From Eledone cirrhosa (Eukaryota), in the NCBI GenBank assembly GCA_964016885.1, contig OZ024747.1, forward strand, positions 29,698,001-29,762,000: a stretch of 64,000 bases of DNA, read 5' to 3'. Each line of letters opens with the position of its first letter. Position 1 is the first letter of the stretch. The notes beneath the pieces were generated by a model that did no database searches, was not told the origin of the DNA, and was given only the letters and a program-made list of their open reading frames with translations. The position numbers and the translations under genes were made by a program. This document shows positions 1 to 58,902 of the stretch, in pieces.

Positions 1-707
1 AGAGATAATATTTAAAAAAATCAGGCGGAGATAATTTGTAAAAAAAATCAGGGGGAGATAATTTGTAAAAAAATCAGGGGGAGATAATTTGTAAAAAAAA
101 ATCAGGGGGAGATAATTTGTAAAAAAAAATCAGGGGGAGATAATTTGTAAAAAAAAATCAGGGGTAGATAATTTGTAAAAAAAAATCAGGGGGAGATAAT
201 TTGTAAAAAAAAAATCAGGGGGAGATAATTTGTAAAAAAATCAAGGGGAGATAATTTCCAGCCGTCCAAGGGGAGATAATTTTCAGCCGTCCAAGGAGAG
301 GTAATTTCTAGCCGTCCAAGGGGAGATAATTTCCAGCCGTCCAAGGGGAGATAATTTTTTAAAAAAAATCAGGCGGAGATAATTTGTAAACAAAAATCAG
401 GGGGAGATAATTTGTAAAAAAAAATCAGGGGGAGATAATTTGTAAAAAAAAATCAGGGGGAGATAATTTGTAAAAAAAATCAAGGGGAGATAATTTGTAA
501 AAAAAAATCAGGGGTAGATAATTTGTAAAAAAAAATCAGGGGGAGATAATTTGTAAAAAAAAAATCAGGGGGAGATAATTTGTAAAAAAATCAAGGGGAG
601 ATAATTTCCAGCCGTCCAAGGGGAGATAATTTTCAGCCGTCCAAGGAGAGGTAATTTCTAGCCGTCCAAGGGGAGATAATTTCCAGCCAGCCAAGGGGAG
701 ATAATTT
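1..707. repeat. Satellite family A block 1 (27-bp and 25-bp units sharing GGGGAGATAATTT), truncated by window start
   Basis: Tandem units (CAG)GGGGAGATAATTTGTA7-10T and GGGGAGATAATTTCCAGCCGTCCAA read directly. The segment is near-identical to 11538-12244 and about 48883-49589. Confidence 0.97.
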
Positions 708-3485
708 TTTTATGGGGGGGGTCCGTTTTTTATTTGGGTACCCCGTTTTTTATTTGGGTGCCCCGTTTTTTTATGGGGGGGGTCCGTTTTTTATTTGGGT
801 GTCCCGTTTTTTTATGGGGGGGGTCCGTTTTTTATTTGGGTGCCCCGTTTTTTTATGGGGGGGGTCCCGTTTTTTATTTGGGTACCCCGTTTTTTATTTG
901 GGTGCCCCGTTTTTTTATGGGGGGATCCGTTTTTTATTTGGGTGCCCCGTTTTTTATTTGGGTGTCCCGTTTTTTTATGGGGGGATCCGTTTTTTATTTG
1001 GGTGCCCCGTTTTTTATGGGGGGGGGTCCGTTTTTTATTTGGGTACCCCGTTTTTTATTTGGGTGCCCCGTTTTTTTATGGGGGGGGTCCGTTTTTTATT
1101 TGGGTGCCCCGTTTTTTTATGGGGGGGGTCCGTTTTTTATTTGGGTGCCCCGTTTTTTTATGGGGGGGGGGTCCCGTTTTTTATTTGGGTGCCCCGTTTT
1201 TTTATGGGGGGGGGTCCGTTTTTTATTTGGGTACCCCGTTTTTTATTTGGGTGCCCCGTTTTTTTATGGGGGGGGGTCCGTTTTTTATTTGGGTGCCCCG
1301 TTTTTTTATGGGGGGGGGCCGTTTTTTATTTGGGTGCCCCGTTTTTTTATGGGGGGGTCCCGTTTTTTATTTGGGTGCCCCGTTTTTTTATGGGGGGGGT
1401 CCGTTTTTTATTTGGGTACCCCGTTTTTTATTTGGGTGCCCCGTTTTTTTATGGGGGGGGTCCGTTTTTTATTTGGGTGCCCCGTTTTTTATTTGGGTGC
1501 CCCGTTTTTTTATGGGGGGGATCCGTTTTTTATTTGGGTGCCCCGTTTTATATTTGGGTGCCCCGTTTTTTATTTGGGTGCCCCGTTTTTTTATGGGGGG
1601 GTCCGTTTTTTATCTGGGTACCCCGTTTTTTATTTGGGTACCCCGTTTTTTATTTGGGTGCCCCGTTTTTTTATGGGGGGGGGTCCGTTTTTTATTTGGG
1701 TGCCCCGTTTTTTTAATGGGGGGGGGTCCGTTTTTTATTTGGGTGCCCCGTTTTTTATTTGGGTACCCCGTTTTTTATTTGGGTGCCCCGTTTTTTATTT
1801 GGGTGCCCCGTTTTTTTATGGGGGAGTCCGTTTTTTATTTGGGTGCCCCGTTTTTTATTTGGGTACCCCGTTTTTCATTTGGGTGCCCCGTTTTTTTATG
1901 GGGGGGTCCGTTTTTTATTTGGGTGCCCCGTTTTTTTATGGGGGGGGGCCGTTTTTTATTTGGGTACCCCGTTTTTTATTTGGGTGCCCCGTTTTTTATT
2001 TGGGTACCCCGTTTTTTATTTGGGTGCCCCGTTTTTTTATGGGGGGGGGTCCGTTTTTTATTTGGGTGCCCCGTTTTTTTATGGGGGGGGTCCGTTTTTT
2101 ATTTGGGTGCCCCGTTTTTTTATGGGGGGGTCCCGTTTTTTATTTGGGTGCCCCGTTTTTTTATGGGGGGGGGTCCGTTTTTTATTTGGGTACCCCGTTT
2201 TTTATTTGGGTGCCCCGTTTTTTTATGGGGGGGTCCGTTTTTTATTTGGGTGCCCCGTTTTTTTATGGGGGGGTCCGTTTTTTATCTGGGTACCCCGTTT
2301 TTTATTTGGGTACCCCGTTTTTTATTTGGGTGCCCCGTTTTTTTATGGGGGGGGTCCGTTTTTTATTTGGGTGCCCCGACTTTTATTTGGGTGTCCCGTT
2401 TTTTTATGGGGGGGTCCCGTTTTTTATTTGGGTGCCCCGTTTTATATTTGGGTGCCCCGTTTTTTATTTGGGTGCCCCGTTTTTTTATGGGGGGGTCCGT
2501 TTTTTATCTGGGTACCCCGTTTTTTATTTGGGTACCCCGTTTTTTTATGGGGGGGGTCCGTTTTTTATTTGGGTGCCCCGTTTTTTTATGGGGGGGTCCC
2601 GTTTTTTATTTGGGTGCCCCGTTTTTTTATGGGGGGGGGGTCCGTTTTTTATTTGGGTACCCCGTTTTTTATTTGGGTGCCCCGTTTTTTTATGGGGGGG
2701 GTCCGTTTTTTATTTGGGTGCCCCGTTTTTTATTTGGGTGCCCCGTTTTTTTATGGGGGGGATCCGTTTTTTATTTGGGTGCCCCGTTTTATATTTGGGT
2801 GCCCCGTTTTTTATTTGGGTGCCCCGTTTTTTTATGGGGGGGTCCGTTTTTTATCTGGGTACCCCGTTTTTTATTTGGGTACCCCGTTTTTTATTTGGGT
2901 GCCCCGTTTTTTTATGGGGGGGGGTCCGTTTTTTATTTGGGTGCCCCGTTTTTTTAATGGGGGGGGTCCGTTTTTTATTTGGGTGCCCCGTTTTTTATTT
3001 GGGTACCCCGTTTTTTATTTGGGTGCCCCGTTTTTTTCTGGGGGGGTCCCGTTTTTTATTTGGGTGCCCCGTTTTTATATGGGGGGGGGGGTCCGTTTTT
3101 TATTTGGGTACCCCGTTTTTTATTTGGGTGTCCCGTTTTTTTATGGGGGGATCCGTTTTTTATTTGGGTGCCCCGTTTTTTATGGGGGGGGGGTCCGTTT
3201 TTTATTTGGGTACCCCGTTTTTTATTTGGGTGCCCCGTTTTTTTATGGGGGGGGTCCGTTTTTTATTTGGGTGCCCCGTTTTTTTATGGGGGGGGGGTCC
3301 GTTTTTTATTTGGGTGCCCCGTTTTTTTATGGGGGGGATCCCGTTTTTTATTTGGGTGCCCCGTTTTTTTATGGGGGGGGTCCGTTTTTTATTTGGGTAC
3401 CCCCGTTTTTTATTTGGGTGTGCCCCGTTTTTTTATGGGGAGGGTCCGTTTTTTATTTGGGTGCCCCGTTTTTTTACAAATTATT
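708..3485. repeat. Satellite family B block 1 (~20-bp units, ~2.8 kb)
   Basis: Tandem CCGTTTTTTATTTGGGT(G/A)CC and CCGTTTTTTTATG(n)T units. The block ends in TTTTTTTACAAATTATT. Confidence 0.97.
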
Positions 3486-3530
3486 GAGATAACATTTAAA
3501 AAAATCAGGCGGAGATAATTTGTAAAAAAA
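3469..3530. repeat. 16-bp perfect inverted repeat at B-to-A junction 1 (TTTTTTTACAAATTAT / ATAATTTGTAAAAAAA, 30-nt spacer)
   Basis: 3469-3484 is the reverse complement of the family A unit segment at 3515-3530. Confidence 0.9.
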
Positions 3531-6500
3531 TCAGGGGGAGATAATTTGTAAAAAAATCAGGGGGAGATAATTTGTAAAAAAAATCAGGGGTAGATAATTT
3601 CCAGCCGTCCAAGGGGAGATAATTTCCATCCTTCCAAGGGGAGATAATTTCCAGCCGTCCGAGGGGAGATAATTTCCCGCCAGCCAAGGAGAGATAATAT
3701 TTAAAAAAATCAGGCGGAGATAATTTGTAAAAAAAATCAGGGGGAGATAATTTGTAAAAAAATCAGGGGGAGATAATTTGTAAAAAAAAATCAGGGGAGA
3801 TAATTTGTAAAAAAAATCAGGGGGAGATGATTTGTAAAAAAAAATCAGGGGTAGATAATTTGTAAAAAAAAATCAGGGGGAGATAATTTGTAAAAAAAAA
3901 ATCAGGGGGAGATAATTTGTAAAAAAATCAAGGGGAGATAATTTCCAGCCGTCCAAGGGGAGATAATTTTCAGCCGTCCAAGGAGGTAATTTCTAGCCGT
4001 CCAAGGGGAGATAATTTCCAGCCGTCCAAGGGGATATAATTTTTTTTTAAAAATCAGGCGGAGATAATTTGTAAACAAAAATCAGGGGGAGATAATTTGT
4101 AAAAAAAAATCAGGGGGAGATAATTTGTAAAAAAAAATCAGGGGGAGATAATTTGTAAAAAAAATCAAGGGGAGATAATTTCCAGCCGTCCAAGGGGAGG
4201 TAATATCTAGCCATCCAAGGGGAGATAATTTCCAGCCGTCCAAGGGGAGATAATTTCCAGCCGTCCAAGGGGAGATAATATCCAGCCGTCCAAGGAGACA
4301 TATTTTCCAGCCGTCCAAGGAGAGGTAATTTCTAGCCGTCCAAGGGGAGATAAGTTCCAGCCTCCAAGGGGAGAAAATTTCCAGCCAGCCAAGGGGAGAT
4401 AATTTGTAAAAAAATCAGGGGGAGATAATTTGTAAAAAAAAAATCAGGGGGAGATAATTTGTAAAAAAATCAGGGGGAGATAATTTGTAAAAAAAAAATC
4501 AGGGGGAGATAATTTGTAAAAAAAATCAGGGGGAGATAATTTGTAGAAAAAATCAGGGGTAGATAATTTGTAAAAAAAATCAGGGGGAGATAATTTGTAA
4601 AAAAAATCAGGGGGAGATAATTTGTAAAAAAAATCAGGGGTAGATAATTTTCAGCCGTCCAAGGGGAGATAATTTCCATCCTTCCAAGGGGAGATAATTT
4701 CCAGCCGTCCAAGGGGAGATAATTTCCCGCCAGCCAAGGAGAGATAACATTTAAAAAAATCAGGCGGAGATAATTTGTAAAAAAAATCAGGGGGAGATAA
4801 TTTGTAAAAAAATCAGGGGGAGATAATTTGTAAAAAAAATCAGGGGTAGATAATTTCCAGCCGTCCAAGGGGAGATAATTTCCATCCTTCCAAGGGGAGA
4901 TAATTTCCAGCCGTCCAAGGGGAGATAATTTCCCGCCAGCCAAGGAGAGATAATATTTAAAAAAATCAGGCGGAGATAATTTGTAAAAAAAATCAGGGGG
5001 AGATAATTTGTAAAAAAATCAGGGGGAGATAATTTGTAAAAAAAAATCAGGGGGAGATAATTTGTAAAAAAAATCAGGGGGAGATAATTTGTAAAAAAAA
5101 ATCAGGGGTAGATAATTTGTAAAAAAAAATCAGGGGGAGATAATTTGTAAAAAAAAAATCAGGGGGAGATAATTTGTAAAAAAATCAAGGGGAGATAATT
5201 TCCAGCCGTCCAAGGGGAGATAATTTTCAGCCGTCCAAGGAGAGGTAATTTCTAGCCGTCCAAGGGGAGATAATTTCCAGCCGTCCAAGGGGAGATAATT
5301 TTTTTAAAAAAATCAGGCGGAGATAATTTGTAAACAAAAATCAGGGGGAGATAATTTGTAAAAAAAAATCAGGGGGAGATAATTTGTAAAAAAAAAATCA
5401 GGGGGTGATAATTTGTAAAAAAATCAAGGGGAGATAATTTCCAGCCGTCCAAGGGGAGATAATTTTCAGCCGTCCAAGGAGAGGTAATTTCTAGCCGTCC
5501 AAGGGGAGATAATTTCCAGCCAGCCAAGGGGAGATAATTTGTAAAAAAATCAGGGGTAGATAATTTGTAAAAAAAAATCAGGGGGAGATAATTTGTAAAA
5601 AAAATCAGGGGGAGATAATTTGTAAAAAAATCAGGGGGAGATAATTTGTAAAAAAAATCAGGGGGAGATAATTTGTAAAAAAATCAGGGGGAGATAATTT
5701 GTAAAAAAAAAATCAGGGGGATATAATTTGTAAAAAAAATCAGGGCGAGATAATTTGTAAAAAAAATCAGGGGTAGATAATTTGTAAAAAAAATCAGGGG
5801 GAGATAATTTGTAAAAAAAATCAGGGGGAGATAATTTGTAAAAAAAATCAGGGGTAGATAATTTCCAGCCGTCCAAGGGGAGATAATTTCCATCCTTCCA
5901 AGGGGAGATAATTTCCAGCCGTCCAAGGGGAGATAATTTCCCGCCAGCCAAGGAGAGATAACATTTAAAAAAATCAGGCGGAGATAATTTGTAAAAAAAA
6001 TCAGGGGGAGATAATTTGTAAAAAAATCAGGGGGAGATAATTTGTAAAAAAAATCAGGGGTAGATAATTTCCAGCCGTCCAAGGGGAGATAATTTCCATC
6101 CTTCCAAGGGGAGATAATTTCCAGCCGTCCAAGGGGAGATAATTTCCCGCCAGCCAAGGAGAGATAATATTTAAAAAAATCAGGCGGAGATAATTTGTAA
6201 AAAAAATCAGGGGGAGATAATTTGTAAAAAAATCAGGGGGAGATAATTTGTAAAAAAAAATCAGGGGAGATAATTTGTAAAAAAAATCAGGGGGAGATAA
6301 TTTGTAAAAAAAATCAGGGGTAGATAATTTGTAAAAAAAAATCAGGGGGAGATAATTTGTAAAAAAAAAATCAGGGGGAGATAATTTGTAAAAAAATCAA
6401 GGGGAGATAATTTCCAGCCGTCCAAGGGGAGATAATTTTCAGCCGTCCAAGGAGGTAATTTCTAGCCGTCCAAGGGGAGATAATTTCCAGCCGTCCAAGG

Positions 6501-9500
6501 GGAGATAATTTTTTTAAAAAAATCAGGCGGAGATAATTTGTAAACAAAAATCAGGGGGAGATAATTTGTAAAAAAAAATCAGGGGGAGATAATTTGTAAA
6601 AAAAAATCAGGGGGAGATAATTTGTAAAAAAAATCAAGGGGAGATAATTTCCAGCCGTCCAAGGGGAGGTAATATCTAGCCATCCAAGGGGAGATAATTT
6701 CCAGCCGTCCAAGGGGAGATAATTTCCAGCCGTCCAAGGGGAGATAATATCCAGCCGTCCAAGGAGACATATTTTCCAGCCGTCCAAGGAGAGGTAATTT
6801 CTAGCCGTCCAAGGGGAGATAAGTTCCAGCCTCCAAGGGGAGATAATTTCCAGCCAGCCAAGGGGAGATAATTTGTAAAAAAATCAGGGGGAGATAATTT
6901 GTAAAAAAAAAATCAGGGGGAGATAATTTGTAAAAAAATCAGGGGGAGATAATTTGTAAAAAAAAAATCAGGGGGAGATAATTTGTAAAAAAAATCAGGG
7001 GGAGATAATTTGTAGAAAAAATCAGGGGTAGATAATTTGTAAAAAAAATCAGGGGGAGATAATTTGTAAAAAAAATCAGGGGGAGATAATTTGTAAAAAA
7101 AATCAGGGGTAGATAATTTTCAGCCGTCCAAGGGGAGATAATTTCCATCCTTCCAAGGGGAGATAATTTCCAGCCGTCCAAGGGGAGATAATCTCCCGCC
7201 AGCCAAGGAGAGATAACATTTAAAAAAATCAGGCGGAGATAATTTGTAAAAAAATCAGGGGAAGATAATTTGTAAAAAAAATCAGGGGTAGATAATTTCC
7301 AGCCGTCCAAGGGGAGATAATTTCCATCCTTCCAAGGGGAGATAATTTCCAGCCGTCCAAGGGGAGATAATTTCCCGCCAGCCAAGGAGAGATAATATTT
7401 AAAAAAATCAGGCGGAGATAATTTGTAAAAAAAATCAGGGGGAGATAATTTGTAAAAAAATCAGGGGGAGATAATTTGTAAAAAAAAATCAGGGGGAGAT
7501 AATTTGTAAAAAAAATCAGGGGGAGATAATTTGTAAAAAAAATCAGGGGTAGATAATTTGTAAAAAAAAATCAGGGGGAGATAATTTGTAAAAAAAAAAT
7601 CAGGGGGAGATAATTTGTAAAAAAATCAAGGGGAGATAATTTCCAGCCGTCCAAGGGGAGATAATTTTCAGCCGTCCAAGGAGAGGTAATTTCTAGCCGT
7701 CCAAGGGGAGATAATTTCCAGCCGTCCAAGGGGAGATAATTTTTTTAAAAAAATCAGGCGGAGATAATTTGTAAACAAAAATCAGGGGGAGATAATTTGT
7801 AAAAAAAAATCAGGGGGAGATAATTTGTAAAAAAAATCAGGGGGAGATAATTTGTAAAAAAAATCAAGGGGAGATAATTTCCAGCCGTCCAAGGGGAGGT
7901 AATATCTAGCCATCCAAGGGGAGATAATTTCCAGCCGTCCAAGGGGAGATAATTTCCAGCCGTCCAAGGGGAGATAATATCCAGCCGTCCAAGGAGACAT
8001 ATTTTCCAGCCGTCCAAGGAGAGGTAATTTCTAGCCGTCCAAGGGGAGATAAGTTCCAGCCTCCAAGGGGAGATAATTTCCAGCCAGCCAAGGGGAGATA
8101 ATTTGTAAAAAAATCAGGGGGAGATAATTTGTAAAAAAAAAATCAGGGGGAGATAATTTGTAAAAAAATCAGGGGGAGATAATTTGTAAAAAAAAAATCA
8201 GGGGGAGATAATTTGTAAAAAAAATCAGGGGGAGATAATTTGTAAAAAAAATCAGGGGTAGATAATTTGTAAAAAAAATCAGGGGGAGATAATTTGTAAA
8301 AAAAATCAGGGGGAGATAATTTGTAAAAAAAATCAGGGGTAGATAATTTTCAGCCGTCCAAGGGGAGATAATTTCCATCCTTCCAAGGGGAGATAATTTC
8401 CAGCCGTCCAAGGGGAGATAATCTCCCGCCAGCCAAGGAGAGATAACATTTAAAAAAATCAGGCGGAGATAATTTGTAAAAAAAATCAGGGGGAGATAAT
8501 TTGTAAAAAAATCAGGGGGAGATAATTTGTAAAAAAAATCAGGGGTAGATAATTTCCAGCCCTCCAAGGGGAGATAATTTCCATCCTTCCAAGGGGAGAT
8601 AATTTCCAGCCGTCCAAGGGGAGATAATTTCCCGCCAGCCAAGGAGAGATAATATTTAAAAAAATCAGGCGGAGATAATTTGTAAAAAAAATCAGGGGGA
8701 GATAATTTGTAAAAAAATCAGGGGGAGATAATTTGTAAAAAAAAATCAGGGGGAGATAATTTGTAAAAAAAATCAGGCGGAGATAATTTGTAAAAAAAAT
8801 CAGGGGTAGATAATTTGTAAAAAAAAATCAGGGGGAGATAATTTGTAAAAAAAAAATCAGGGGGAGATAATTTGTAAAAAAATCAAGGGGAGATAATTTC
8901 CAGCCGTCCAAGGGGAGATAATTTTCAGCCGTCCAAGGAGAGGTAATTTCTAGCCGTCCAAGGGGAGATAATTTCCAGCCGTCCAAGGGGAGATAATTTT
9001 TTTAAAAAAATCAGGCGGAGATAATTTGTAAACAAAAATCAGGGGGAGATAATTTGTAAAAAAAAATCAGGGGGAGATAATTTGTAAAAAATAATCAGGG
9101 GGAGATAATTTGTAAAAAAAATCAAGGGGAGATAATTTCCAGCCGTCCAAGGGGAGATAATATCCAGCCGTCCAAGGAGACATATTTTCCAGCCGTCCAA
9201 GGAGAGGTAATTTCTAGCCGTCCAAGGGGAGATAAGTTCCAGCCTCCAAGGGGAGATAATTTCCAGCCAGCCAAGGGGAGATAATTTGTAAAAAAATCAG
9301 GGGGAGATAATTTGTAAAAAAAAAATCAGGGGCAGATAATTTGTAAAAAAATCAGGGGGAGATAATTTGTAAAAAAAAAATCAGGGGGAGATAATTTGTA
9401 AAAAAAATCAGGGGGAGATAATTTGTAAAAAAAATCAGGGGTAGATAATTTGTAAAAAAAATCAGGGGGAGATAATTTGTAAAAAAAATCAGGGGTAGAT

Positions 9501-23346: not shown

Positions 23347-23391
23347 GAGATAACATTTAAAAAAATCAGGCGGAGATAATTTGTAAAAAAA
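23330..23391. repeat. Same inverted repeat at B-to-A junction 2
   Basis: Identical junction CGTTTTTTTACAAATTATTGAGATAACATTT, offset 19861 from junction 1. Confidence 0.9.
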
Positions 23392-28783: not shown

Positions 28784-28980
28784 GTAAAAAATCAGGGGTA
28801 GATAATTTGTAAAAAAAAATCAGGGGGAGATAATTTGTAAAAAAAATCAGGGGGAGATAATTTGTAAAAAAAATCAGGGGTAGATAATTTCCAGCCGTCC
28901 AAGGGGAGATAATTTCCATCCTTCCAAGGGGAGATAATTTCCAGCCGTCCAAGGGGAGATAATTTCAGGCCAGCCAAGGA
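28784..28980. other. Empty (B-free) allele of the insertion site: 197 bp of family A that the B block replaces elsewhere
   Basis: Left flank CCAGCCAGCCAAGGGGAGATAATTT and right flank GAGATAACATTT match the B junctions. Upstream and downstream marker variants are the same as around filled sites. Confidence 0.8.
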
Positions 28981-34599: not shown

Positions 34600-34797
34600 G
34601 TAAAAAAATCAGGGGTAGATAATTTGTAAAAAAAAATCAGGGGGAGATAATTTGTAAAAAAAATCAGGGGGAGATAATTTGTAAAAAAAATCAGGGGTAG
34701 ATAATTTCCAGCCGTCCAAGGGGAGATAATTTCCATCCTTCCAAGGGGAGATAATTTCCAGCCGTCCAAGGGGAGATAATTTCCCGCCAGCCAACGA
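34600..34797. other. Second empty allele of the insertion site (198 bp)
   Basis: Same flanks and markers (downstream GGGGATATAA near 35345 and GGAGAAAATTT near 35685), ~5.8 kb after the first empty site. Confidence 0.8.
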
Positions 34798-46700: not shown

Positions 46701-49589
46701 AATTTCCAGCCGTCCAAGGGGAGATAATTTCCCGCCAGCCAAGGAGAGATAATATTTAAAAAAATCAGGCGGAGATAATTTGTAAAAAAAATCAGGGGGA
46801 GATAATTTGTAAAAAAATCAGGGGGAGATAATTTGTAAAAAAAAATCAGGGGGAGATAATTTGTAAAAAAAATCAGGGGGAGATAATTTGTAAAAAAAAT
46901 CAGGGGTAGATAATTTGTAAAAAAAAATCAGGGGGAGATAATTTGTAAAAAAAAATCAGTGGGAGATAATTTGTAAAAAAATCAAGGGGAGATAATTTCC
47001 AGCCGTCCAAGGGGAGATAATTTTCAGCCGTCCAAGGAGAGGTAATTTCTAGCCGTCCAAGGGGAGATAATTTCCAGCCGTCCAAGGGGAGATAATTTTT
47101 TTAAAAAAATCAGGCGGAGATAATTTGTAAACAAAAATCAGGGGGAGATAATTTGTAAAAAAAAATCAGGGGGAGATAATTTGTAAAAAAAAATCAGGGG
47201 GAGATAATTTGTAAAAAAAATCAAGGGGAGATAATTTCCAGCCGTCCAAGGGGAGGTAATATCTAGCCATCCAAGGGGAGATAATTTCCAGCCGTCCAAG
47301 GGGAGATAATTTCCAGCCGTCCAAGGGGAGATAATATCCAGCCGTCCAAGGAGACATATTTTCCAGCCGTCCAAGGAGACGTAATTTCTAGCCGTCCAAG
47401 GGGAGATAAGTTCCAGCCTCCAAGGGGAGATAATTTCCAGCCAGCCAAGGGGAGATAATTTGGAAAAAAATTAGGGGGAGATAATTTGTAAAAAAAAATT
47501 AGGGGGAGATAATTTGTAAAAAAAAATCAGGGGGAGATAATTTGTAAAAAAAAATCAGGGGGAGATAATTTGTAAAAAGAATCAAGGGGAGATAATTTCC
47601 AGCCGTCCAAGGGGAGATAATTTTCAGCCGTCCAAGGAGAGGTAAATTCTAGCCGTCCAAGGAGATATAATTTCCAGCCGTCCAAGGGGAGATAATTTCC
47701 AGCCGTCCAAGGGGAGATAATTTTTAAAAAAAAATCAGGCGGAGATAATTTGTAAACAAAAATCAGGGGGAGATAATTTTTAAAAAAAGAAGTCAGGGGG
47801 AGATAATTTGTAAAAAAAAATCAGGGGGAGATAATTTGTAAAAAAAATCAAGGGGAGATAATTTCCAGCCGTCCAAGGGGAGGTAATATCTAGCCATCCA
47901 AGGGGAGATAATTTCCAGCCGTCCAAGGGGAGATAATTTCCAGCCGTCCAAGGGGAGATAATATCCAGCCGTCCAAGGAGACATATTTTCCAGCCGTCCA
48001 AGGAGAGGTAATTTCTAGCCGTCCAAGGGGAGATAAGTTCCAGCCTCCAAGGGGAGATAATTTCCAGCCAGCCAAGGGGAGATAATTTGTAAAAAAATCA
48101 GGGGGGAGATAATTTGTAAAAAAAATCAGGGGGAGATAATTTGAAAAAAAAAATCAGGGGGAGATAATTTGTAAAAAATATCAAGGGGAGATAATTTCCA
48201 GCCCTCCAAGGGGCTATAATTTCCAGCCGTGCAAGGGGAGATAATTTCCAGCCGTCCAAGGGGAGATAATTTCCATCCTTCCAAGGGGAGATAATTTCCA
48301 GCCGTCCAAGGGGAGATAATTTCCCGCCAGCCAAGGGAAGATAATTTTTTAAAAAATCAGGCGGAGATTGTAAAAAAAATCAGGGGGAGATAATTTGTAA
48401 AAAAATCAGGGGGAGATAATTTGTAAAAAAAAAATCAGGGGGAGATAATTTGTAAAAAAAAATCAGGGGGAGATAATTTGTAAAAAAAATCAGGGGGAGA
48501 TAATTTGTAAAAAAAATCAGGGGTAGATAATTTGTAAAAAAAATCAGGGGGAGATAATTTGTAAAAAAAATCAGGGGGAGATAATTTGTAAAAAAAATCA
48601 GGGGTAGATAATTTTCAGCCGTCCAAGGGGAGATAATTTCCATCCTTCCAAGGGGAGATAATTTCCAGCCGTCCAAGGGGAGATAATTTCCCGCCAGCCA
48701 AGGAGAGATAACATTTAAAAAAATCAGGCGGAGATAATTTGTAAAAAAATCAGGGGGAGATAATTTGTAAAAAAAATCAGGGGTAGATAATTTCCAGCCG
48801 TCCAAGGGGAGATAATTTCCATCCTTCCAAGGGGAGATAATTTCCAGCCGTCCAAGGGGAGATAATTTCCCGCCAGCCAAGGAGAGATAATATTTAAAAA
48901 AATCAGGCGGAGATAATTTGTAAAAAAAATCAGGGGGAGATAATTTGTAAAAAAATCAGGGGGAGATAATTTGTAAAAAAAAATCAGGGGGAGATAATTT
49001 GTAAAAAAAAATCAGGGGGAGATAATTTGTAAAAAAAAATCAGGGGTAGATAATTTGTAAAAAAAAATCAGGGGGAGATAATTTGTAAAAAAAAAATCAG
49101 GGGGAGATAATTTGTAAAAAAATCAAGGGGAGATAATTTCCAGCCGTCCAAGGGGAGATAATTTTCAGCCGTCCAAGGAGAGGTAATTTCTAGCCGTCCA
49201 AGGGGAGATAATTTCCAGCCGTCCAAGGGGAGATAATTTTTTAAAAAAAATCAGGCGGAGATAATTTGTAAACAAAAATCAGGGGGAGATAATTTGTAAA
49301 AAAAAATCAGGGGGAGATAATTTGTAAAAAAAAATCAGGGGGAGATAATTTGTAAAAAAAATCAAGGGGAGATAATTTGTAAAAAAAAATAAGGGGTAGA
49401 TAATTTGTAAAAAAAAATCAGGGGGAGATAATTTGTAAAAAAAAAATCAGGGGGAGATAATTTGTAAAAAAATCAAGGGGAGATAATTTCCAGCCGTCCA
49501 AGGGGAGATAATTTTCAGCCGTCCAAGGAGAGGTAATTTCTAGCCGTCCAAGGGGAGATAATTTCCAGCCAGCCAAGGGGAGATAATTT

Positions 49590-52500
49590 TTTTATGGGGG
49601 GGGTCCGTTTTTTATTTGGGTACCCCGTTTTTTATTTGGGTGCCCCGTTTTTTTATGGGGGGGGTCCGTTTTTTATTTGGGTGTCCCGTTTTTTTATGGG
49701 GGGGGGTCCGTTTTTTATTTGGGTGCCCCGTTTTTTTATGGGGGGGGGTCCGTTTTTTATTTGGGTACCCCGTTTTTTATTTGGGTGCCCCGTTTTTTTA
49801 TGGGGGGATCCGTTTTTTATTTGGGTGCCCCGTTTTTTATTTGGGTGTCCCGTTTTTTTATGGGGGGATCCGTTTTTTATTTGGGTGCCCCGTTTTTTAT
49901 GGGGGGGGGGTCCGTTTTTTATTTGGGTACCCCGTTTTTTATTTGGGTGCCCCGTTTTTTTATGGGGGGGGGTCCGTTTTTTATTTGGGTGCCCCGTTTT
50001 TTTATGGGGGGGGTCCGTTTTTTATTTGGGTGCCCCGTTTTTTTATGGGGGGGGGGTCCCGTTTTTTATTTGGGTGCCCCGTTTTTTTATGGGGGGGGGG
50101 GTCCGTTTTTTATTTGGGTACCCCGTTTTTTATTTGGGTGCCCCGTTTTTTTATGGGGGGGGGGTCCGTTTTTTATTTGGGTGCCCCGTTTTTTTATGGG
50201 GGGGGTCCGTTTTTTATTTGGGTGCCCCGTTTTTTTATGGGGGGGTCCCGTTTTTTATTTGGGTGCCCCGTTTTTTTATGGGGGGGGTCCGTTTTTTATT
50301 TGGGTACCCCGTTTTTTATTTGGGTGCCCCGTTTTTTTATGGGGGGGGTCCGTTTTTTATTTGGGTGCCCCGTTTTTTATTTGGGTGCCCCGTTTTTTTA
50401 TGGGGGGGATCCGTTTTTTATTTGGGTGCCCCGTTTTATATTTGGGTGCCCCGTTTTTTATTTGGGTGCCCCGTTTTTTTATGGGGGGGTCCGTTTTTTA
50501 TCTGGGTACCCCGTTTTTTATTTGGGTACCCCGTTTTTTATTTGGGTGCCCCGTTTTTTTATGGGGGGGGGTCCGTTTTTTATTTGGGTGCCCCGTTTTT
50601 TTAATGGGGGGGGGTCCGTTTTTTATTTGGGTGCCCCGTTTTTTATTTGGGTACCCCGTTTTTTATTTGGGTGCCCCGTTTTTTATTTGGGTGCCCCGTT
50701 TTTTTATGGGGGAGTCCGTTTTTTATTTGGGTGCCCCGTTTTTTATTTGGGTACCCCGTTTTTCATTTGGGTGCCCCGTTTTTTTATGGGGGGGTCCGTT
50801 TTTTATTTGGGTGCCCCGTTTTTTTATGGGGGGGGGCCGTTTTTTATTTGGGTACCCCGTTTTTTATTTGGGTGCCCCGTTTTTTATTTGGGTACCCCGT
50901 TTTTTATTTGGGTGCCCCGTTTTTTTATGGGGGGGGGGTCCGTTTTTTATTTGGGTGCCCCGTTTTTTTATGGGGGGGGTCCGTTTTTTATTTGGGTGCC
51001 CCGTTTTTTTATGGGGGGTCCCGTTTTTTATTTGGGTGCCCCGTTTTTTTATGGGGGGGGGTCCGTTTTTTATTTGGGTACCCCGTTTTTTATTTGGGTG
51101 CCCCGTTTTTTTATGGGGGGGTCCGTTTTTTATTTGGGTGCCCCGTTTTTTTATGGGGGGGTCCGTTTTTTATCTGGGTACCCCGTTATTTATTTGGGTA
51201 CCCCGTTTTTTATTTGGGTGCCCCGTTTTTTTATGGGGGGGGGTCCGTTTTTTATTTGGGTGCCCCGACTTTTATTTGGGTGTCCCGTTTTTTTATGGGG
51301 GGGTCCCGTTTTTTATTTGGGTGCCCCGTTTTATATTTGGGTGCCCCGTTTTTTATTTGGGTGCCCCGTTTTTTTATGGGGGGGTCCGTTTTTTATCTGG
51401 GTACCCCGTTTTTTATTTGGGTACCCCGTTTTTTTATGGGGGGGGTCCGTTTTTTATTTGGGTGCCCCGTTTTTTTATGGGGGGGTCCCGTTTTTTATTT
51501 GGGTGCCCCGTTTTTTTATGGGGGGGGGTCCGTTTTTTATTTGGGTACCCCGTTTTTTATTTGGGTGCCCCGTTTTTTTATGGGGGGGGTCCGTTTTTTA
51601 TTTGGGTGCCCCGTTTTTTATTTGGGTGCCCCGTTTTTTTATGGGGGGGATCCGTTTTTTATTTGGGTGCCCCGTTTTATATTTGGGTGCCCCGTTTTTT
51701 ATTTGGGTGCCCCGTTTTTTTATGGGGGGGTCCGTTTTTTATCTGGGTACCCCGTTTTTTATTTGGGTACCCCGTTTTTTATTTGGGTGCCCCGTTTTTT
51801 TATGGGGGGGGGGGGTCCGTTTTTTATTTGGGTGCCCCGTTTTTTTAATGGGGGGGGTCCGTTTTTTATTTGGGTGCCCCGTTTTTTATTTGGGTACCCC
51901 GTTTTTTATTTGGGTGCCCCGTTTTTTTCTGGGGGGGTCCCGTTTTTTATTTGGGTGCCCCGTTTTTATATGGGGGGGGGGGTCCGTTTTTTATTTGGGT
52001 ACCCCGTTTTTTATTTGGGTGTCCCGTTTTTTTATGGGGGGATCCGTTTTTTATTTGGGTGCCCCGTTTTTTATGGGGGGGGGGTCCGTTTTTTATTTGG
52101 GTACCCCGTTTTTTATTTGGGTGCCCCGTTTTTTTATGGGGGGGGTCCGTTTTTTATTTGGGTGCCCCGTTTTTTTATGGGGGGGGGGTCCGTTTTTTAT
52201 TTGGGTGCCCCGTTTTTTTATGGGGGGGGGTCCCGTTTTTTATTTGGGTGGCCCGTTTTTTTATGGGGGGGGTCCGTTTTTTATTTGGGTACCCCGTTTT
52301 TTATTTGGGTGCCCCGTTTTTTTATGGGGGGGGGTCCGTTTTTTATTTGGGTGCCCCGTTTTTTTATGGGGGGGGGTCCGTTTTTTATTTGGGTGCCCCG
52401 TTTTTTTATGGGGGGGTCCCGTTTTTTATTTGGGTGCCCCGTTTTTTTATGGGGGGGGTCCGTTTTTTATTTGGGTACCCCGTTTTTTATTTGGGTGCCC

Positions 52501-55500
52501 CGTTTTTTTATGGGGGGGGTCCGTTTTTTATTTGGGTGCCCCGTTTTTTATTTGGGTGCCCCGTTTTTTTATGGGGGGGATCCGTTTTTTATTTGGGTGC
52601 CCCGTTTTATATTTGGGTGCCCCGTTTTTTATTTGGGTGCCCCGTTTTTTTATGGGGGGGTCCGTTTTTTATCTGGGTACCCCGTTTTTTATTTGGGTAC
52701 CCCGTTTTTTATTTGGGTGCCCCGTTTTTTTATGGGGGGGGGGGGGGTCCGTTTTTTATTTGGGTGCCCCGTTTTTTTTATGGGGGGGGTCCGTTTTTTA
52801 TTTGGGTGCCCCGTTTTTTATTTGGGTACCCCGTTTTTTATTTGGGTTTCCCGTTTTTTATTTGGGTGCCCCGTTTTTTTATGGGGGAGTCCGTTTTTTA
52901 TTTGGGTGCCCCGTTTTTCATTTGGGTACCCCGTTTTTTATTTGGGTGCCCCGTTTTTTTATGGGGGGGTTCGTTTTTTATTTGGGTGCCCCGTTTTTTT
53001 ATGGGGGGGGCCGTTTTTTATTTGGGTACCCCGTTTTTTATTTGGGTGCCCCGTTTTTTTATGGGGGGGTCCCGTTTTTTATTTGGGTGCCCCGTTTTAT
53101 TATTTGGGTGCCCCGTTTTTTTATGGGGGGGGCCGTTTTTTATTTGGGTGCCCCGTTTTTTTATGGGGGGGGTCCGTTTTTTATTTGGGTACCCCGTTTT
53201 TTATTTGGGTGCCCCGTTTTTTTATGGGGGGATACGTTTTTTATTTGGGTGCCCCGTTTTTTATTTGGGTGTGGCGTTTTTTTATGGGGGGGTCCGTTTT
53301 TTATTTGGGTGCCCCGTTTTTTTATGGGGGGGGTCCGTTTTTTATTTGGGTACCCCTTTTGTTATTTGGGTGCCCCGTTTTTTTATGGGGGGGGGGTCCG
53401 TTTTTTATTTGGGTGCCCCGTTTTTTTATGGGGGGGGGTCCGTTTTTTATTTGGGTGCCCCGTTTTTTTATGGGGGGGTCCCGTTTTTTATTTGGGTGCC
53501 CCGTTTTTTTATGGGGGGGGTCCGTTTTTTATTTGGGTACCCCGTTTTTTATTTGGGTGCCCCGTTTTTTATGGGGGGATCCGTTTTTTATTTGGGTGTC
53601 CCGTTTTATATTTGGGTGTCCCGTTTTTTTATGGGGGGGTCCGTTTTTTATTTGGGTGCCCCGTTTTTTTATGGGGGGGTCCCGTTTTTTATTTGGGTGC
53701 CCCGTTTTTTTATGGGGGGGGGTCCCGTTTCTTATTTGGGTGCCCCGTTTTTTTATGGGGGGGGGTCCGTTTTTTATTTGGGTACCCCGTTTTTTATTTG
53801 GGTGCCCCGTTTTTTTATGGGGGGGTCCGTTTTTTATTTGGGTGCCCCGTTTTTTTATGGGGGGGGGTCCGTTTTTTATTTGGGTGCCCCGTTTTTTTAT
53901 GGGGGGGGGTCCGTTTTTTATTTGGGTACCCCGTTTTTTATTTGGGTGCCCCGTTTTTTTATGGGGGGGGTCCGTTTTTTATTTGGGTGCCCCGTTTTTT
54001 TATGGGGGGGGGTCCGTTTTTTATTTGGGTGCCCCGTTTTTTTATGGGGGGTCCCGTTTTTTATTTGGGTGCCCCGTTTTTTTATGGGGGGGGGGGGGTC
54101 CCGTTTTTTATTTGGGTACCCCGTTTTTTTATGGGGGGGTCCGTTTTTTATTTGGGTACCCCGTTTTTTATTTGGGTGCCCCGTTATTTTATGGGGGGGT
54201 CCGTTTTTTATTTGGGTGCCCCGTTTTTTTATGGGGGGGGGGGTCCGTTTTTTATTTGGGTGTCCCGTTTTTTTACGGGGGGTCCCGTTTTTTATTTGGG
54301 TGCCCCGTTTTTTATTTGGGTGCCCCGTTTTTTTATGGGGGGGGGTCCGTTTTTTATTTGGGTGCCCCGTTTTTTTATGGGGGGACCGTTTTTTATCTGG
54401 GTACCCCGTTGTTTATTTGGGTACCCCGTTTTTTTTATGGGGGGGTCCGTTTTTTTTATGGGGGGGTCCGTTTTTTATTTGGGTACCCCGTTTTTTATTT
54501 GGGTGCCGCGTTTTTTTATGGGGGGGGTCCGTTTTTTATTTGGGTGCCCCGTTTTTTTATGGGGGTACCCCGTTTTTTATTTGGGTGCCCCGTTTTTTTA
54601 TGGGGGGGGTCCGTTTTTTATTTGGGTGCCCCGTTTTTTTATGGGGGGGGCCGTTTTTTATTTGGGTGCCCCGTTTTTTTATGGGGGTACCCCGTTTTTT
54701 ATTTGGGTGCCCCGTTTTTTTATGGGGGGGGGGGGCCGTTTTTTATTTGGGTGCCCCGTTTTTTTATGGGGGGGGGCCGTTTTTTATTTGGGTACCCCGT
54801 TTTTTATTTGGGTGCCCCGTTTTTTATTTGGGTACCCCGTTTTTTATTTGGGTACCCCGTTTTTTATTTGGGTGCCCTCTTTTTTTATGGGGGGGGTCCG
54901 TTTTTTATTTGGGTGCCCCGTTTTTTTATGGGGGGGTCCCGTTTTTTATTTGGGTGCCCCGTTTTTTTATGGGGGGGGGTCCGTTTTTTATTTGGGTACC
55001 CCGTTTTATATTTGGGTGCCCCGTTTTTTTATGGGGGGGGTCCGTTTTTTATTTGGGTGCCCCGTTTTTTTATGGGGGTGTCCGTTTTTTATCTGGGTAC
55101 CCCGTTTTTTATTTGGGTACCCCGTTTTTTATTTGGGTGCCCCGTTTTTTTATGGGGGGGTCCGTTTTTTATCTGGGTACCCCGTTTTTTATTTGGGTAC
55201 CCCGTTTTTTATTTGGGTGCCCCGTTTTTTTATGGGGGGGGGGGTCCGTTTTTTATTTGGGTGCCCCTTTTTTTTTTATGGGGGGGGTCCGTTTTTTATT
55301 TGGGTGCCCCGTTTTTTATTTGGGTACCCCGTTTTTTATTTGGATTTCCCGTTTTTTATTTGGGTGCCCCGTTTTTTTATGGGGGAGTCCGTTTTTTATT
55401 TGGGTGCCCCGTTTTTTATTTGGGTACCCCGTTTTTTATTTGGGTGCCCCGTTTTTTTATGGGGGGGTTCGTTTTTTATTTGGGTGCCCCGTTTTTTTAT

Positions 55501-58500
55501 GGGGGGGGGCCGTTTTTTATTTGGGTACCCCGTTTTTTATTTGGGTGCCCCGTTTTTTTATGGGGGGGTCCCGTTTTTTATTTGGGTGCCCCGTTTTATT
55601 ATTTGGGTGCCCCGTTTTTTTATGGGGGGGGGCCGTTTTTTATTTGGGTGCCCCGTTTTTTTATGGGGGGGGTCCGTTTTTTATTTGGGTACCCCGTTTT
55701 TTATTTGGGTGCCCCGTTTTTTTATGGGGGGATCCGTTTTTTATTTGGGTGCCCCGTTTTTTATTTGGGTGTCCCGTTTTTTTATGGGGGGGTCCGTTTT
55801 TTATTTGGGTGCCCCGTTTTTTTATGGGGGGGGGTCCGTTTTTTATTTGGGTACCCCTTTTGTTATTTGGGTGCCCCGTTTTTTTATGGGGGGGGGGTCC
55901 GTTTTTTATTTGGGTGCCCCGTTTTTTTATGGGGGGGGGTCCGTTTTTTATTTGGGTGCCCCGTTTTTTTATGGGGGGGTCCCGTTTTTTATTTGGGTGC
56001 CCCGTTTTTTTATGGGGGGGGGCCGTTTTTTATTTGGGTACCCCGTTTTTTATTTGGGTGCCCCGTTTTTTATGGGGGGATCCGTTTTTTATTTGGGTGT
56101 CCCGTTTTTTATTTGGGTGTCCCGTTTTTTTATGGGGGGGTCCGTTTTTTATTTGGGTGCCCCGTTTTTTTATGGGGGGGTCCCGTTTTTTATTTGGGTG
56201 CCCCGTTTTTTATGGGGGGGTCCCGTTTCTTATTTGGGTGCCCCGTTTTTTTATGGGGGGGGTCCGTTTTTTATTTGGGTACCCCGTTTTTTATTTGGGT
56301 GCCCCGTTTTTTTATGGGGGGGTCCGTTTTTTATTTGGGTGCCCCGTTTTTTTATGGGGGGGGTCCGTTTTTTATTTGGGTGCCCCGTTTTTTTATGGGG
56401 GGGGGTCCGTTTTTTATTTGGGTACCCCGTTTTTTATTTGGGTGCCCCGTTTTTTTATGGGGGGGGGTCCGTTTTTTATTTGGGTGCCCCGTTTTTTTAT
56501 GGGGGGGGTCCGTTTTTTATTTGGGTGCCCCGTTTTTTTTATGGGGGGTCCCGTTTTTTATTTGGGTGCCCCGTTTTTTTATGGGGGGGGGTCCCGTTTT
56601 TTATTTGGGTACCCCGTTTTTTTATGGGGGGTCCGTTTTTTATTTGGGTACCCCGTTTTTTATTTGGGTGCCCCGTTTTTTTATGGGGGGGTCCGTTTTT
56701 TATTTGGGTGCCCCGTTTTTTATGGGGGGGGGGGGGGGAATCCGTTTTTTATTTGGGTGTCCCGTTTTTTTACGGGGGGGTCCCGTTTTTTATTTGGGTG
56801 CCCCGTTTTTTATTTGGGTGCCCCGTTTTTTTATGGGGGGGGGTCCGTTTTTTATTTGGGTGCCCCGTTTTTTTATGGGGGGACCGTTTTTTATCTGGGT
56901 ACCCCGTTGTTTATTTGGGTACCCCGTTTTTTATTTGGGTGCCGCGTTTTTTTATGGGGGGGGTCCGTTTTTTATTTGGGTGCCCCGTTTTTTTATGGGG
57001 GTACCCCGTTTTTTATTTGGGTGCCCCGTTTTTTTATGGGGGGGGGGTCCGTTTTTTATTTGGGTGCCCCGTTTTTTTATGGGGGGGGCCGTTTTTTATT
57101 TGGGTGCCCCGTTTTTTTATGGGGGTACCCCGTTTTTTATTTGGGTGCCCCGTTTTTTTATGGGGGGGGTCCGTTTTTTATTTGGGTACCCCGTTTTTTA
57201 TTTGGGTGTCCCGTTTTTTTATGGGGGGGTCCGTTTTTTATTTGGGTACCCCGTTTTTTATTTGGGTGCCCCGTTTTTTTATGGGGGGGTCCGTTTTTTA
57301 TTTGGGTGCCCCGTTTTTTTATTGGGGGGGTCCGTTTTTTATTTGGGTGCCCCGTTTTTTTATGGGGGGGGTCCCGTTTTTTATTTGGGTGCCCCGTTTT
57401 TTTATGGGGGGGGTCCGTTTTTTATTTGGGTACCCCGTTTTTTATTTGGGTGCCCCGTTTTTTTATGGGGGGGTCCGTTTTTTATTTGGGTACCCCGTTT
57501 TTTATTTGGGTGCCCCGTTTTTTTATGGGGGGGTCCGTTTTTTATTTGGGTGCCCCGTTTTTTTATGGGGGGGTCCGTTTTTTATTTGGGTGCCCCGTTT
57601 TTTTATGGGGGGGGTCCCGTTTTTTATTTGGGTGCCCCGTTTTTTTATGGGGGGGGGGTCCGTTTTTTATTTGGGTACCCCGTTTTTTATTTGGGTGCCC
57701 CGTTTTTTTATGGGGGGGGGTCCGTTTTTTATTTGGGTGCCCCGTTTTTTTATGGGGGGGTCCGTTTTTTATTTGGGTGCCCCGTTTTTTTATGGGGGGG
57801 TCCCGTTTTTTATTTGGGTGCCCCGTTTTTTTATGGGGGGGGTCCGTTTTTTATTTGGGTACCCCGTTTTTTATTTGGGTGCCCCGTTTTTTTATGGGGG
57901 GGGTCCGTTTTTTATTTGGGTGCCCCGTTTTTTATTTGGGTGCCCCGTTTTTTTATGGGGGGGATCCGTTTTTTATTTGGGTGCCCCGTTTTATATTTGG
58001 GTGCCCCGTTTTTTATTTGGGTGCCCCGTTTTTTATTTGGGTGCCCCGTTTTTTTATGGGGGGGTCCGTTTTTTATCTGGGTACCCCGTTTTTTATTTGG
58101 GTACCCCGTTTTTTATTTGGGTGCCCCGTTTTTTTATGGGGGGGTCCGTTTTTTATTTGGGTGCCCCGTTTTTTTTATGGGGGGGGTCCGTTTTTTATTT
58201 GGGTGCCCCGTTTTTTATTTGGGTACCCCGTTTTTTATTTGGGTGCCCCGTTTTTTATTTGGGTGCCCCGTTTTTTTATGGGGGGGTCCGTTTTTTATTT
58301 GGGTGACCCGTTTTTTATTTGGGTACCCCGTTTTTTATTTGGGTGCCCCGTTTTTTTATGGGGGGGTCCGTTGTTTATTTGGGTGCCCCGTTTTTTTATG
58401 GGGGGGGCCGTTTTTTATTTGGGTACCCCGTTTTTTATTTGGGTGCCCCGTTTTTTTATGGGGGGGGTCCGTTTTTTATTTGGGTGCCCCGTTTTTTTAT

Positions 58501-58857
58501 GGGGGGGGGTCCGTTTTTTATTTGGGTGCCCCGTTTTTTTATGGGGGGGTCCCGTTTTTTATTTGGGTGCCCCGTTTTTTTATGGGGAGGGTCCGTTTTT
58601 TATTTGGGTGCCCCGTTTTTTTATTGGGGGGTCCCGTTTTTTATTTGGGTGCCCCGTTTTTTTATGGGGGGGGTCCGTTTTTTATTTGGGTACCCCGTTT
58701 TTTATTTGGGTGCCCCGTTTTTTTATGGGGGGGGTCCGTTTTTTATTTGGGTGCCCCGTTTTTTTATGGGGGGGTCCCGTTTTTTATTTGGGTGCCCCGT
58801 TTTTTTATGGGGAGGGTCCGTTTTTTATTTGGGTGCCCCGTTTTTTTACAAATTATT
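49590..58857. repeat. Satellite family B block 3 (~9.3 kb)
   Basis: Same units and junctions. Shares ordered rare variants with blocks 1 and 2 (CCCCGACTTTT, TTTTTTAATGG, GGGTGACCCG, GGGGAGGGTCC). Confidence 0.97.
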
Positions 58858-58902
58858 GAGATAACATTTAAAAAAATCAGGCGGAGATAATTTGTAAAAA
58901 AA
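58841..58902. repeat. Same inverted repeat at B-to-A junction 3
   Basis: Identical junction sequence, offset 35511 from junction 2. Confidence 0.9.

What the first reader, a model, noticed from the sequence alone, without database searches (positions are those of the whole stretch)
690..58870. Satellite B occupies one specific site of satellite A, with both filled and empty alleles in the same array
Seen: all three B blocks begin after ..CCAGCCAGCCAAGGGGAGATAATTT (ending 707, 12244, 49589) and end with ..TTTTTTTACAAATTATT before GAGATAACATTT (starting 3486, 23347, 58858). The same HOR position occurs without B at 28784-28980 and 34600-34797, where 197-198 bp of ordinary A units separate the two flanks. 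Homology is supported by the rare GGGGCTATAA cassette 1.3-1.4 kb upstream of the four sites where that region is visible, and by GGGGATATAA and GGAGAAAATTT variants downstream of all five. Inference: a foreign satellite entered once by replacement (deletion plus insertion, no direct target-site duplication), and the composite was then amplified. It is unusual to have the pre- and post-insertion states of a satellite-in-satellite invasion side by side.
Basis: partly seen in the sequence, partly recalled or inferred. Interest (0 to 1): 0.75.

Follow-up and report, generated by a model that had tools for sequence, protein, structure and literature searches.

The report
One satellite grafted into another
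Blocks of one short DNA repeat sit at exactly the same spot of a second, unrelated repeat in every copy found, next to uninterrupted copies of that spot, likely because a single broken-DNA repair joined the two repeats once and later duplications copied the join; it is a clean example of a pattern already known from beetles, flies and humans.

Summary
The window lies in a 343-kb gap-bounded contig with 8 identical left and 8 identical right A/B junctions and 11 empty sites; an unplaced contig adds 1 and 2 more junctions. The predicted empty site at 64295 exists. The empty state also occurs in a B-free stretch of a megabase A array on another chromosome, so it is ancestral, not an excision scar. 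The empties are sister copies, not the exact pre-insertion allele. B blocks range from 2.6 to at least 79 kb; the short ones are deletion products. One-step replacement is likeliest (0.62); an array boundary followed by duplication (0.2) or A into B (0.12) are not excluded. No reads span the junction in the runs laid. Closest known: Tribolium madens TmSat2 cassettes, Drosophila Rsp-like/1.688, human HSat1A. An earlier scan note describes another two-satellite composite in this genome. New member of a known kind.

The parts
1..707 (+). Satellite A (25-29 bp monomers of two types in a ~5.8-kb higher-order unit), ending at left junction 1
708..3476 (+). Satellite B block (20-21 bp monomers, 136 units), short deletion-type block
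3469..3485 (-). Right-junction filler: 16-nt inverted copy of an A monomer core (first 8 nt shared with B's T-run) plus one untemplated T; nearest partner arm at 3515-3530
3486..12244 (+). Satellite A block between right and left junction; carries the variants at 3661 and 3829 that mark filled right flanks
12245..23337 (+). Satellite B block, 544 units, with an internal 125-monomer tandem duplication
23330..23346 (-). Right-junction inverted filler, copy 2
23347..49589 (+). Satellite A block holding two empty sites; duplicated 35,511 bp downstream (28 monomer-level differences in 993 monomers)
28784..28980 (+). Empty site 1: 197 bp of A (8 monomers) in place of B
34600..34797 (+). Empty site 2: 198 bp of A in place of B; 5,816 bp after empty site 1
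49590..58848 (+). Satellite B block, 453 units; colinear with the first ~14 kb of the >=79-kb block downstream
58841..58857 (-). Right-junction inverted filler, copy 3
58858..64000 (+). Satellite A block, continuing beyond the window to empty sites at 64295 and 70112 and a left junction at 85255

Best explanation
A stretch of satellite B lies between two fixed breakpoints 197-198 bp apart in the 5.8-kb higher-order unit of satellite A, likely put there by one microhomology-guided repair of a break in A and then likely multiplied by unequal exchange. Shown: identical junctions in all copies; loss of 8 A monomers; a 3-nt T overlap on the left; a 16-nt inverted A piece on the right whose A-run end overlaps B's T-run by 8 nt; unbroken sites in B-free A DNA. 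Inferred: the left end of the break annealed to a B T-run, the right end first copied a nearby A monomer backwards and then annealed to a B T-run; the captured B was probably long (tens of kb); later duplications of 3.6-50 kb units that span several A units copied filled and empty sites together, while B-B exchange shrank some blocks to 2.6-2.8 kb and grew others locally. No function is implied; the junction is conserved by descent.
For: 8+8 junctions in the contig and 1+2 on C134, all identical. Breakpoints in register: 198 of 5,816 bp, about 3% by chance (my arithmetic). Empty configuration with the same downstream markers at C2:249.122 Mb (gap 198) and an ancestral-type left cassette at C2:250.145 Mb (gap 197), in 240 kb of sampled C2 array with 0 B motifs. 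Filled right flanks share derived variants: the GATGAT variant lies within 1 kb after 8 of 8 right junctions in the contig and nowhere else there, and after both on C134; 7 of 8 filled flanks differ by 0-2 substitutions in 880 bp, empties by 3-4. Rejoining B's end to B's start finds no matching site in 336 kb of B: score 23, and 51 of 60 random joins score as well or better (35 of 40). The only sequence shared by A and reversed B is the 8-mer used at the right junction. Short blocks equal the first ~128 monomers of the 9.3-kb block plus its last few.
Against: Both ends of the contig are B (12.6 kb and 79 kb, cut by gaps), so outer A flanks are not seen. The 79-kb block runs on through a near-perfect unbroken copy of the right breakpoint (2 and 3 differences in 20 monomers) and most of it shares no more with the 9.3-kb block than arrays on other chromosomes do, as a native B array would. 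By eye, B's start falls within about 0-20 monomers of B's end in the ~150-monomer unit of the leftmost block. No exact pre-insertion allele was found. The GATGAT variant also occurs at 2 non-junction places on C134 and once on C2, and the second marker 4 times on C2. The donor array was not identified. No read or contig from public runs was seen to span the junction.
Confidence: 0.62

Rival explanations
1. Two steps: the left junction is an older boundary between an A array and a long B array; a later template switch from about 9-14 kb inside B back to A made the right junction and a tandem duplication, which was then amplified.
For: The last block is at least 79 kb, ends at a gap, is colinear with the 9.3-kb block for about 700 monomers and continues past the right breakpoint. 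An inverted templated filler fits template switching.
Against: Needs the second break to land 198 bp from the first in a 5.8-kb unit, about 3%. A 35-kb B block on C134 with its own interior is closed by both junctions, so long blocks can be inserts.
Confidence: 0.2
2. Mirror image: a circle of A (whole higher-order units, opened with loss of 198 bp) integrated into a B array, and the composite was amplified.
For: The same T7-A octamer flanks A on both sides, so removing A would leave one complete B monomer; contig ends are B; a circle explains why A's ends are in register; loose register of B's ends by eye.
Against: No unbroken B site matches the rejoined ends; the closest unbroken homologues of B's end and start have different neighbours; both joins need a T-run for microhomology, which explains the octamer.
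Confidence: 0.12
3. Assembly artefact: chimeric joins or false duplications in a satellite contig.
For: The contig is bounded by gaps and was placed in a cut of a third satellite whose two sides join seamlessly; one 3,643-bp duplicate is 100% identical; no read support obtained.
Against: 19 junction copies on two contigs with nested flank variants; an inverted filler present in no plain array; A and B share no homology to mis-join on; the 35.5-kb duplicate differs at 28 places.
Confidence: 0.04

Closest known systems
Tribolium madens TmSat2 cassettes within TmSat1 (PMC13081366; abstract, passages and part 1 of 2 of section 7 read)
   Same: Minor satellite embedded in a major one between two conserved transition zones, with a variable number of repeats inside.
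   Different: There the satellites share a ~110-bp ancestor, cassettes number thousands and contain an inversion point. Here A and B are unrelated, 19 junction copies were found, no array-scale inversion lies inside the blocks, and the unbroken target site and the amount lost can still be read.
Drosophila Rsp-like insertions into 1.688 clusters (PMC7403614; passages read)
   Same: Unrelated satellites joined at microhomology, small deletions of the host repeat (2-36 bp), a rare hybrid junction then spread with flanking host repeats and as higher-order units.
   Different: There clusters are small and dispersed in euchromatin, one junction is fixed and the other variable, with five or more events. 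Here both junctions are fixed, the copies are tandem in one array, the deletion is 198 bp and blocks reach tens of kb.
Human HSat1A arrays inside the active alpha-satellite arrays of chromosomes 3 and 4 (bioRxiv 10.1101/2021.07.12.452052; passages read)
   Same: A foreign satellite inserted and expanded inside a higher-order array, host orientation concordant on both sides.
   Different: One megabase block per chromosome in the passages read; the junction pair itself is not described as amplified; centromere function is shown there and untested here.
Cactophilic Drosophila pBuM alpha/beta and pBuM interspersed with DBC-150 or CDSTR130 (PMC5555486; passages read)
   Same: Insertion of non-homologous sequence in an array giving a composite unit that amplifies; interspersed unrelated satellites.
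   Different: The beta insert is a fixed 180-bp piece, not itself an array; interspersion there is not traced to one site in the passages read.
Snap-back synthesis-dependent microhomology-mediated end joining (PMC5728401; passages read)
   Same: Junction insertion that forms a new inverted repeat with sequence near the break and supplies new microhomology.
   Different: Strict criteria are not all met (see membership test); repair here also captured kilobases of foreign DNA.

Membership tests
Satellite-in-satellite cassette with conserved borders (TmSat2/TmSat1 type) | Two fixed transition sequences bounding the inner array | tested here: met
   9 left and 10 right junctions identical at the join
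Satellite-in-satellite cassette with conserved borders (TmSat2/TmSat1 type) | Variable repeat number inside the borders | tested here: met
   Closed blocks of 2,588 to 35,009 bp
Satellite-in-satellite cassette with conserved borders (TmSat2/TmSat1 type) | Macro-dyad: inversion point inside the inner array | tested here: not met
   All A and B in the contig on one strand; only a 16-nt inverted filler
Satellite-in-satellite cassette with conserved borders (TmSat2/TmSat1 type) | Inner and outer satellite share an ancestor | tested here: not met
   Monomer alignments no better than run-shuffled controls, fraction at or above observed 0.57-1.0; low complexity limits the test
Rsp-like/1.688-type microhomology insertion | Microhomology at the junction between unrelated satellites | tested here: met
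   3 T on the left; 8 nt with inverted A on the right
Rsp-like/1.688-type microhomology insertion | Spread of the hybrid junction to dispersed loci | tested here: inconclusive
   Junctions only in the C7 contig and unplaced C134; whether these are one locus is unknown
Rsp-like/1.688-type microhomology insertion | Invader present on extrachromosomal circles | not testable with these tools
   needs circle-enriched sequencing
Snap-back SD-MMEJ junction (criteria in PMC5728401) | Repeat motif of at least 4 bp including the insertion, and microhomology of at least 1 bp | tested here: met
   16-bp inverted repeat, 8-nt microhomology, in 10 of 10 right junctions
Snap-back SD-MMEJ junction (criteria in PMC5728401) | Break-distal end of the motif within 30 bp of the join | tested here: not met
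   Nearest partner arm spans 29-45 bp after the join; the same 16-mer occurs 446 times in one 26-kb block, so the template is not identifiable
Snap-back SD-MMEJ junction (criteria in PMC5728401) | Primer repeat of at least 1 bp | tested here: inconclusive
   One untemplated T separates the arm from resumed A; no clear primer
Transposon-type insertion | Target-site duplication and element ends or coding capacity | tested here: not met
   197-198 bp of target lost, no A duplication, blocks parse wholly into B monomers
Centromeric satellite | CENH3/CENP-A occupancy | not testable with these tools
   no chromatin data

The most novel reading that the evidence does not exclude
Satellite turnover caught in the act: after one capture, B is growing inside A (local amplifications in the 11-, 35- and 79-kb blocks) and has already produced a new 3,643-bp composite monomer (871 bp A plus 2,772 bp B, in tandem), so this array records how a single repair event founds fixed-border satellite cassettes such as those proposed to be functional in Tribolium, and the junction may be young enough to be polymorphic among individuals.
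Probability: 0.25. Interest if true: 0.6.

Novelty: new member of a known kind. Interest (0 to 1): 0.37.

Why it matters
Conserved borders between intermixed satellites have been read as possible functional elements (PMC13081366, which also allows a distribution mechanism). Here the unbroken target, the 198 bp lost, the microhomologies and the templated filler can all be read, which gives a base-level neutral model: one repair event plus unequal exchange yields fixed borders and variable cassettes. The junction 40-mers are also unique markers for measuring how fast a satellite array duplicates and deletes. It does not reveal a new element or mechanism.

Tried and rejected
Public reads: 12 runs listed, none holding half of the sampled words, best share 0.40. 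In one contig run of organism D both satellites are deep but depth collapses in the junction bin and no listed piece spans it; three RAD runs have at most 12 reads on B. A junction-only 54-base probe laid 0 contigs in 4 of 4 runs; these runs may be another species or individual and contigs are filtered, so this neither supports nor refutes. Base-level 1.5-kb comparison of right flanks failed to separate empties from other copies. A to reversed-B scan gave 116 hits; those fetched (9 stretches on C2, C3, C5) are A monomer variants; one C2 hit, one C3 hit, most of the C5 array and 16 unlisted hits were not examined. All four junction scans allow at most 30 bases between motifs, so other junctions can be missed; one known junction was missed through a substitution. 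Common ancestry of A and B: not supported. Excision origin of the empties: rejected, since they hold the missing 198 bp, lack the filled-flank variants and occur on C2. Donor search: B arrays on C1, C2, C5, C6 share 0-20% of 10-monomer words with the blocks, none is the clear donor; the C3 array was not included. Canonical short-loop G-quadruplex motifs: 0 in A and B. A full-text search for four monomer motifs gave 84 papers; none of the 15 listed concerns these satellites. No earlier scan note near this place.

Full report
Setting. The window is G000:C7:29,698,001-29,762,000 in a 3.0-Gb eukaryote assembly. It consists wholly of two satellites: A, 25-29 bp monomers of two types in higher-order repeats, and B, 20-21 bp monomers. 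Fetching 200 kb on either side shows a 343,333-bp contig between two 200-N gaps, with 217.5 kb of A and 125.8 kb of B on one strand. Beyond the gaps lies a third, ~278-bp AT-rich satellite whose two sides join in phase (the 80-bp join occurs 8 times in the flanks), so the contig's position on C7 comes from scaffolding and is not established.

Observation. In the contig there are 8 left and 8 right junctions, identical at the join; closed B blocks measure 2588, 2588, 2772, 2772, 2778, 11102 and 9268 bp, and the end blocks at least 12,609 and 79,331 bp. Unplaced contig C134 has 1 left and 2 right junctions and a closed 35-kb block. Eleven empty sites exist, 10 with a 197-198 bp gap and one with 430 bp, including the predicted one at 64295.

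Is it the same site? Left flanks: of 160 anchors, 7 filled score 0-39 edits over 1.5 kb, the 11 empties 62-64, the next 141. Right flanks: base-level distance does not separate them; a monomer-level score over 35 monomers ranks 8 filled, 10 empty and 1 recombinant first among 201, by a margin of one point. The linkage of the best left and best right flanks at 198 bp is the real evidence. Monomer coding of the contig, C134 and samples of a pure A array on C2 (sampled points from 248.5 to 250.86 Mb are all A) shows a ~5.8-kb unit of four sub-units; the left break is near the end of the fourth and the right break at the start of the first. Chance register is 198/5816, about 3%.

Empties are ancestral-state sisters. 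They keep the 198 bp and lack the variants of filled right flanks; the same configuration is on C2, where 240 kb sampled holds no B motif. But all 11 carry a substitution two monomers before the break and a rearranged upstream sub-unit that filled copies lack; versions closer to the filled left flank occur on C134 and C2. Right flanks of filled and empty sites differ by 3-4 substitutions in 880 bp, so the event is young on the scale of the array; no clock is available.

Junction anatomy. Left: A stops after three T that continue B's T7 run. Right: B stops after T7-A; these 8 nt and the next 8 are the reverse complement of the core of the commonest A monomer; one extra T follows and A resumes. 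The inverted match is exactly 16 nt and its nearest partner starts 29 bp into the resumed A in 10 of 10 copies. The 8-mer is the only sequence shared by A and reversed B. This looks like templated insertion followed by microhomology annealing (PMC5728401, passages), but the strict distance criterion is not met and the template could be any of hundreds of monomers.

One event? Scans for the four junction orientations, each limited to 30 bases between motifs, return only these junctions, A monomer variants where checked, nothing, and one different, older contact on C3, where a diverged B array ends in ~400 bp of A-type monomers. B itself has arrays on C1, C2, C3, C5 and C6, so it is a resident family; a marker of the B end region occurs only in the contig and C134 (9 hits).

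Direction. Rejoining B's end and start finds no matching unbroken site in 336 kb of B; 51 of 60 random joins score as well or better. That asymmetry (A rejoinable, B not) favours B into A. Against it: the contig starts and ends in B; the same octamer flanks A on both sides; B's start is loosely in register with its end by eye; and the 79-kb block passes through unbroken copies of both breakpoints and is mostly as distant from the 9.3-kb block as other chromosomes' arrays. So either the captured piece was long, or the left junction is an older array boundary.

After the event. The short blocks are the first ~128 monomers of the 9.3-kb block joined to its last few. The 11-, 35- and 79-kb blocks contain local exact duplications (periods 125; 256-466; 267 monomers and others). 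A 26-kb A block is repeated 35,511 bp on with 28 differences in 993 monomers. An A-A exchange joined a right flank to a left flank in 871 bp, giving a 3,643-bp composite unit whose two copies are identical; it needs read confirmation. Duplication units larger than 5.8 kb necessarily carry filled and empty sites together, so their coexistence is expected.

Reads. None of the runs available showed the junction, and none is a good holder of the stretch; the structure rests on the assembly.

Comparison. Fixed-border cassettes of one satellite in another are described in Tribolium madens, microhomology insertion with hitch-hiking junctions in Drosophila, large foreign blocks in human centromeric arrays and composite or interspersed repeats in cactophilic Drosophila. 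I saw passages or named sections of these papers, no supplements. Seven paper searches showed no description of these two satellites among the listed results; the library is incomplete. The Tribolium paper was a lead from earlier scan notes, which also call this genome probably an octopus; I did not test that.

Verdict. Real, well resolved, mechanistically readable, but a new member of a known kind. Interest 0.37.

Noticed in passing
G000:C7:29,519,054-29,519,253 and 29,862,587-29,862,786 (gaps; L003, L031): The ~278-bp AT-rich satellite on both sides of the contig joins seamlessly in phase, so the A/B contig was slotted into a cut of that array; its chromosomal position is doubtful.
   Followed up: yes
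G000:C7:29,661,977-29,668,391 (L017-L018): A 3,643-bp composite unit (2,772 bp B plus 871 bp A) in tandem with 0 differences; nascent new monomer or false duplication.
   Followed up: partly
G000:C3:179,429,171 (L082): Independent, older contact: a diverged B array ends in ~400 bp of A-type monomers, followed by 5-bp AT microsatellites; same relative strand as in the window.
   Followed up: partly
G000:C1:290,525,824 (L054): A younger B array abuts, in inverted orientation, a much more degenerate B-like array, a possible older layer of the family.
   Followed up: no
G000:C2:244,332,490-244,346,800 (L108-L110): 3 kb of reversed A and 11 kb of B lie side by side across a gap, both flanked by another, GC-richer tandem repeat.
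   Followed up: no
G000:C5:64.24-64.29 Mb (L066, L067): A diverged A subfamily; the 1.5 kb read consists only of A-run monomers, many shortened.
   Followed up: partly
G000:C2:248,494,100-248,494,800 (L057): Non-satellite sequence beside the large A array that by eye resembles a LINE reverse-transcriptase region (recalled resemblance, not searched).
   Followed up: no
window 1-64000: A and B both have their G-rich strand on +, while the A/T skew flips at each junction.
   Followed up: no
runs X1-X9: Six coded organisms hold small shares of the junction stretch, and a run of organism D carries both satellites at high depth, so both families may be shared with relatives.
   Followed up: partly
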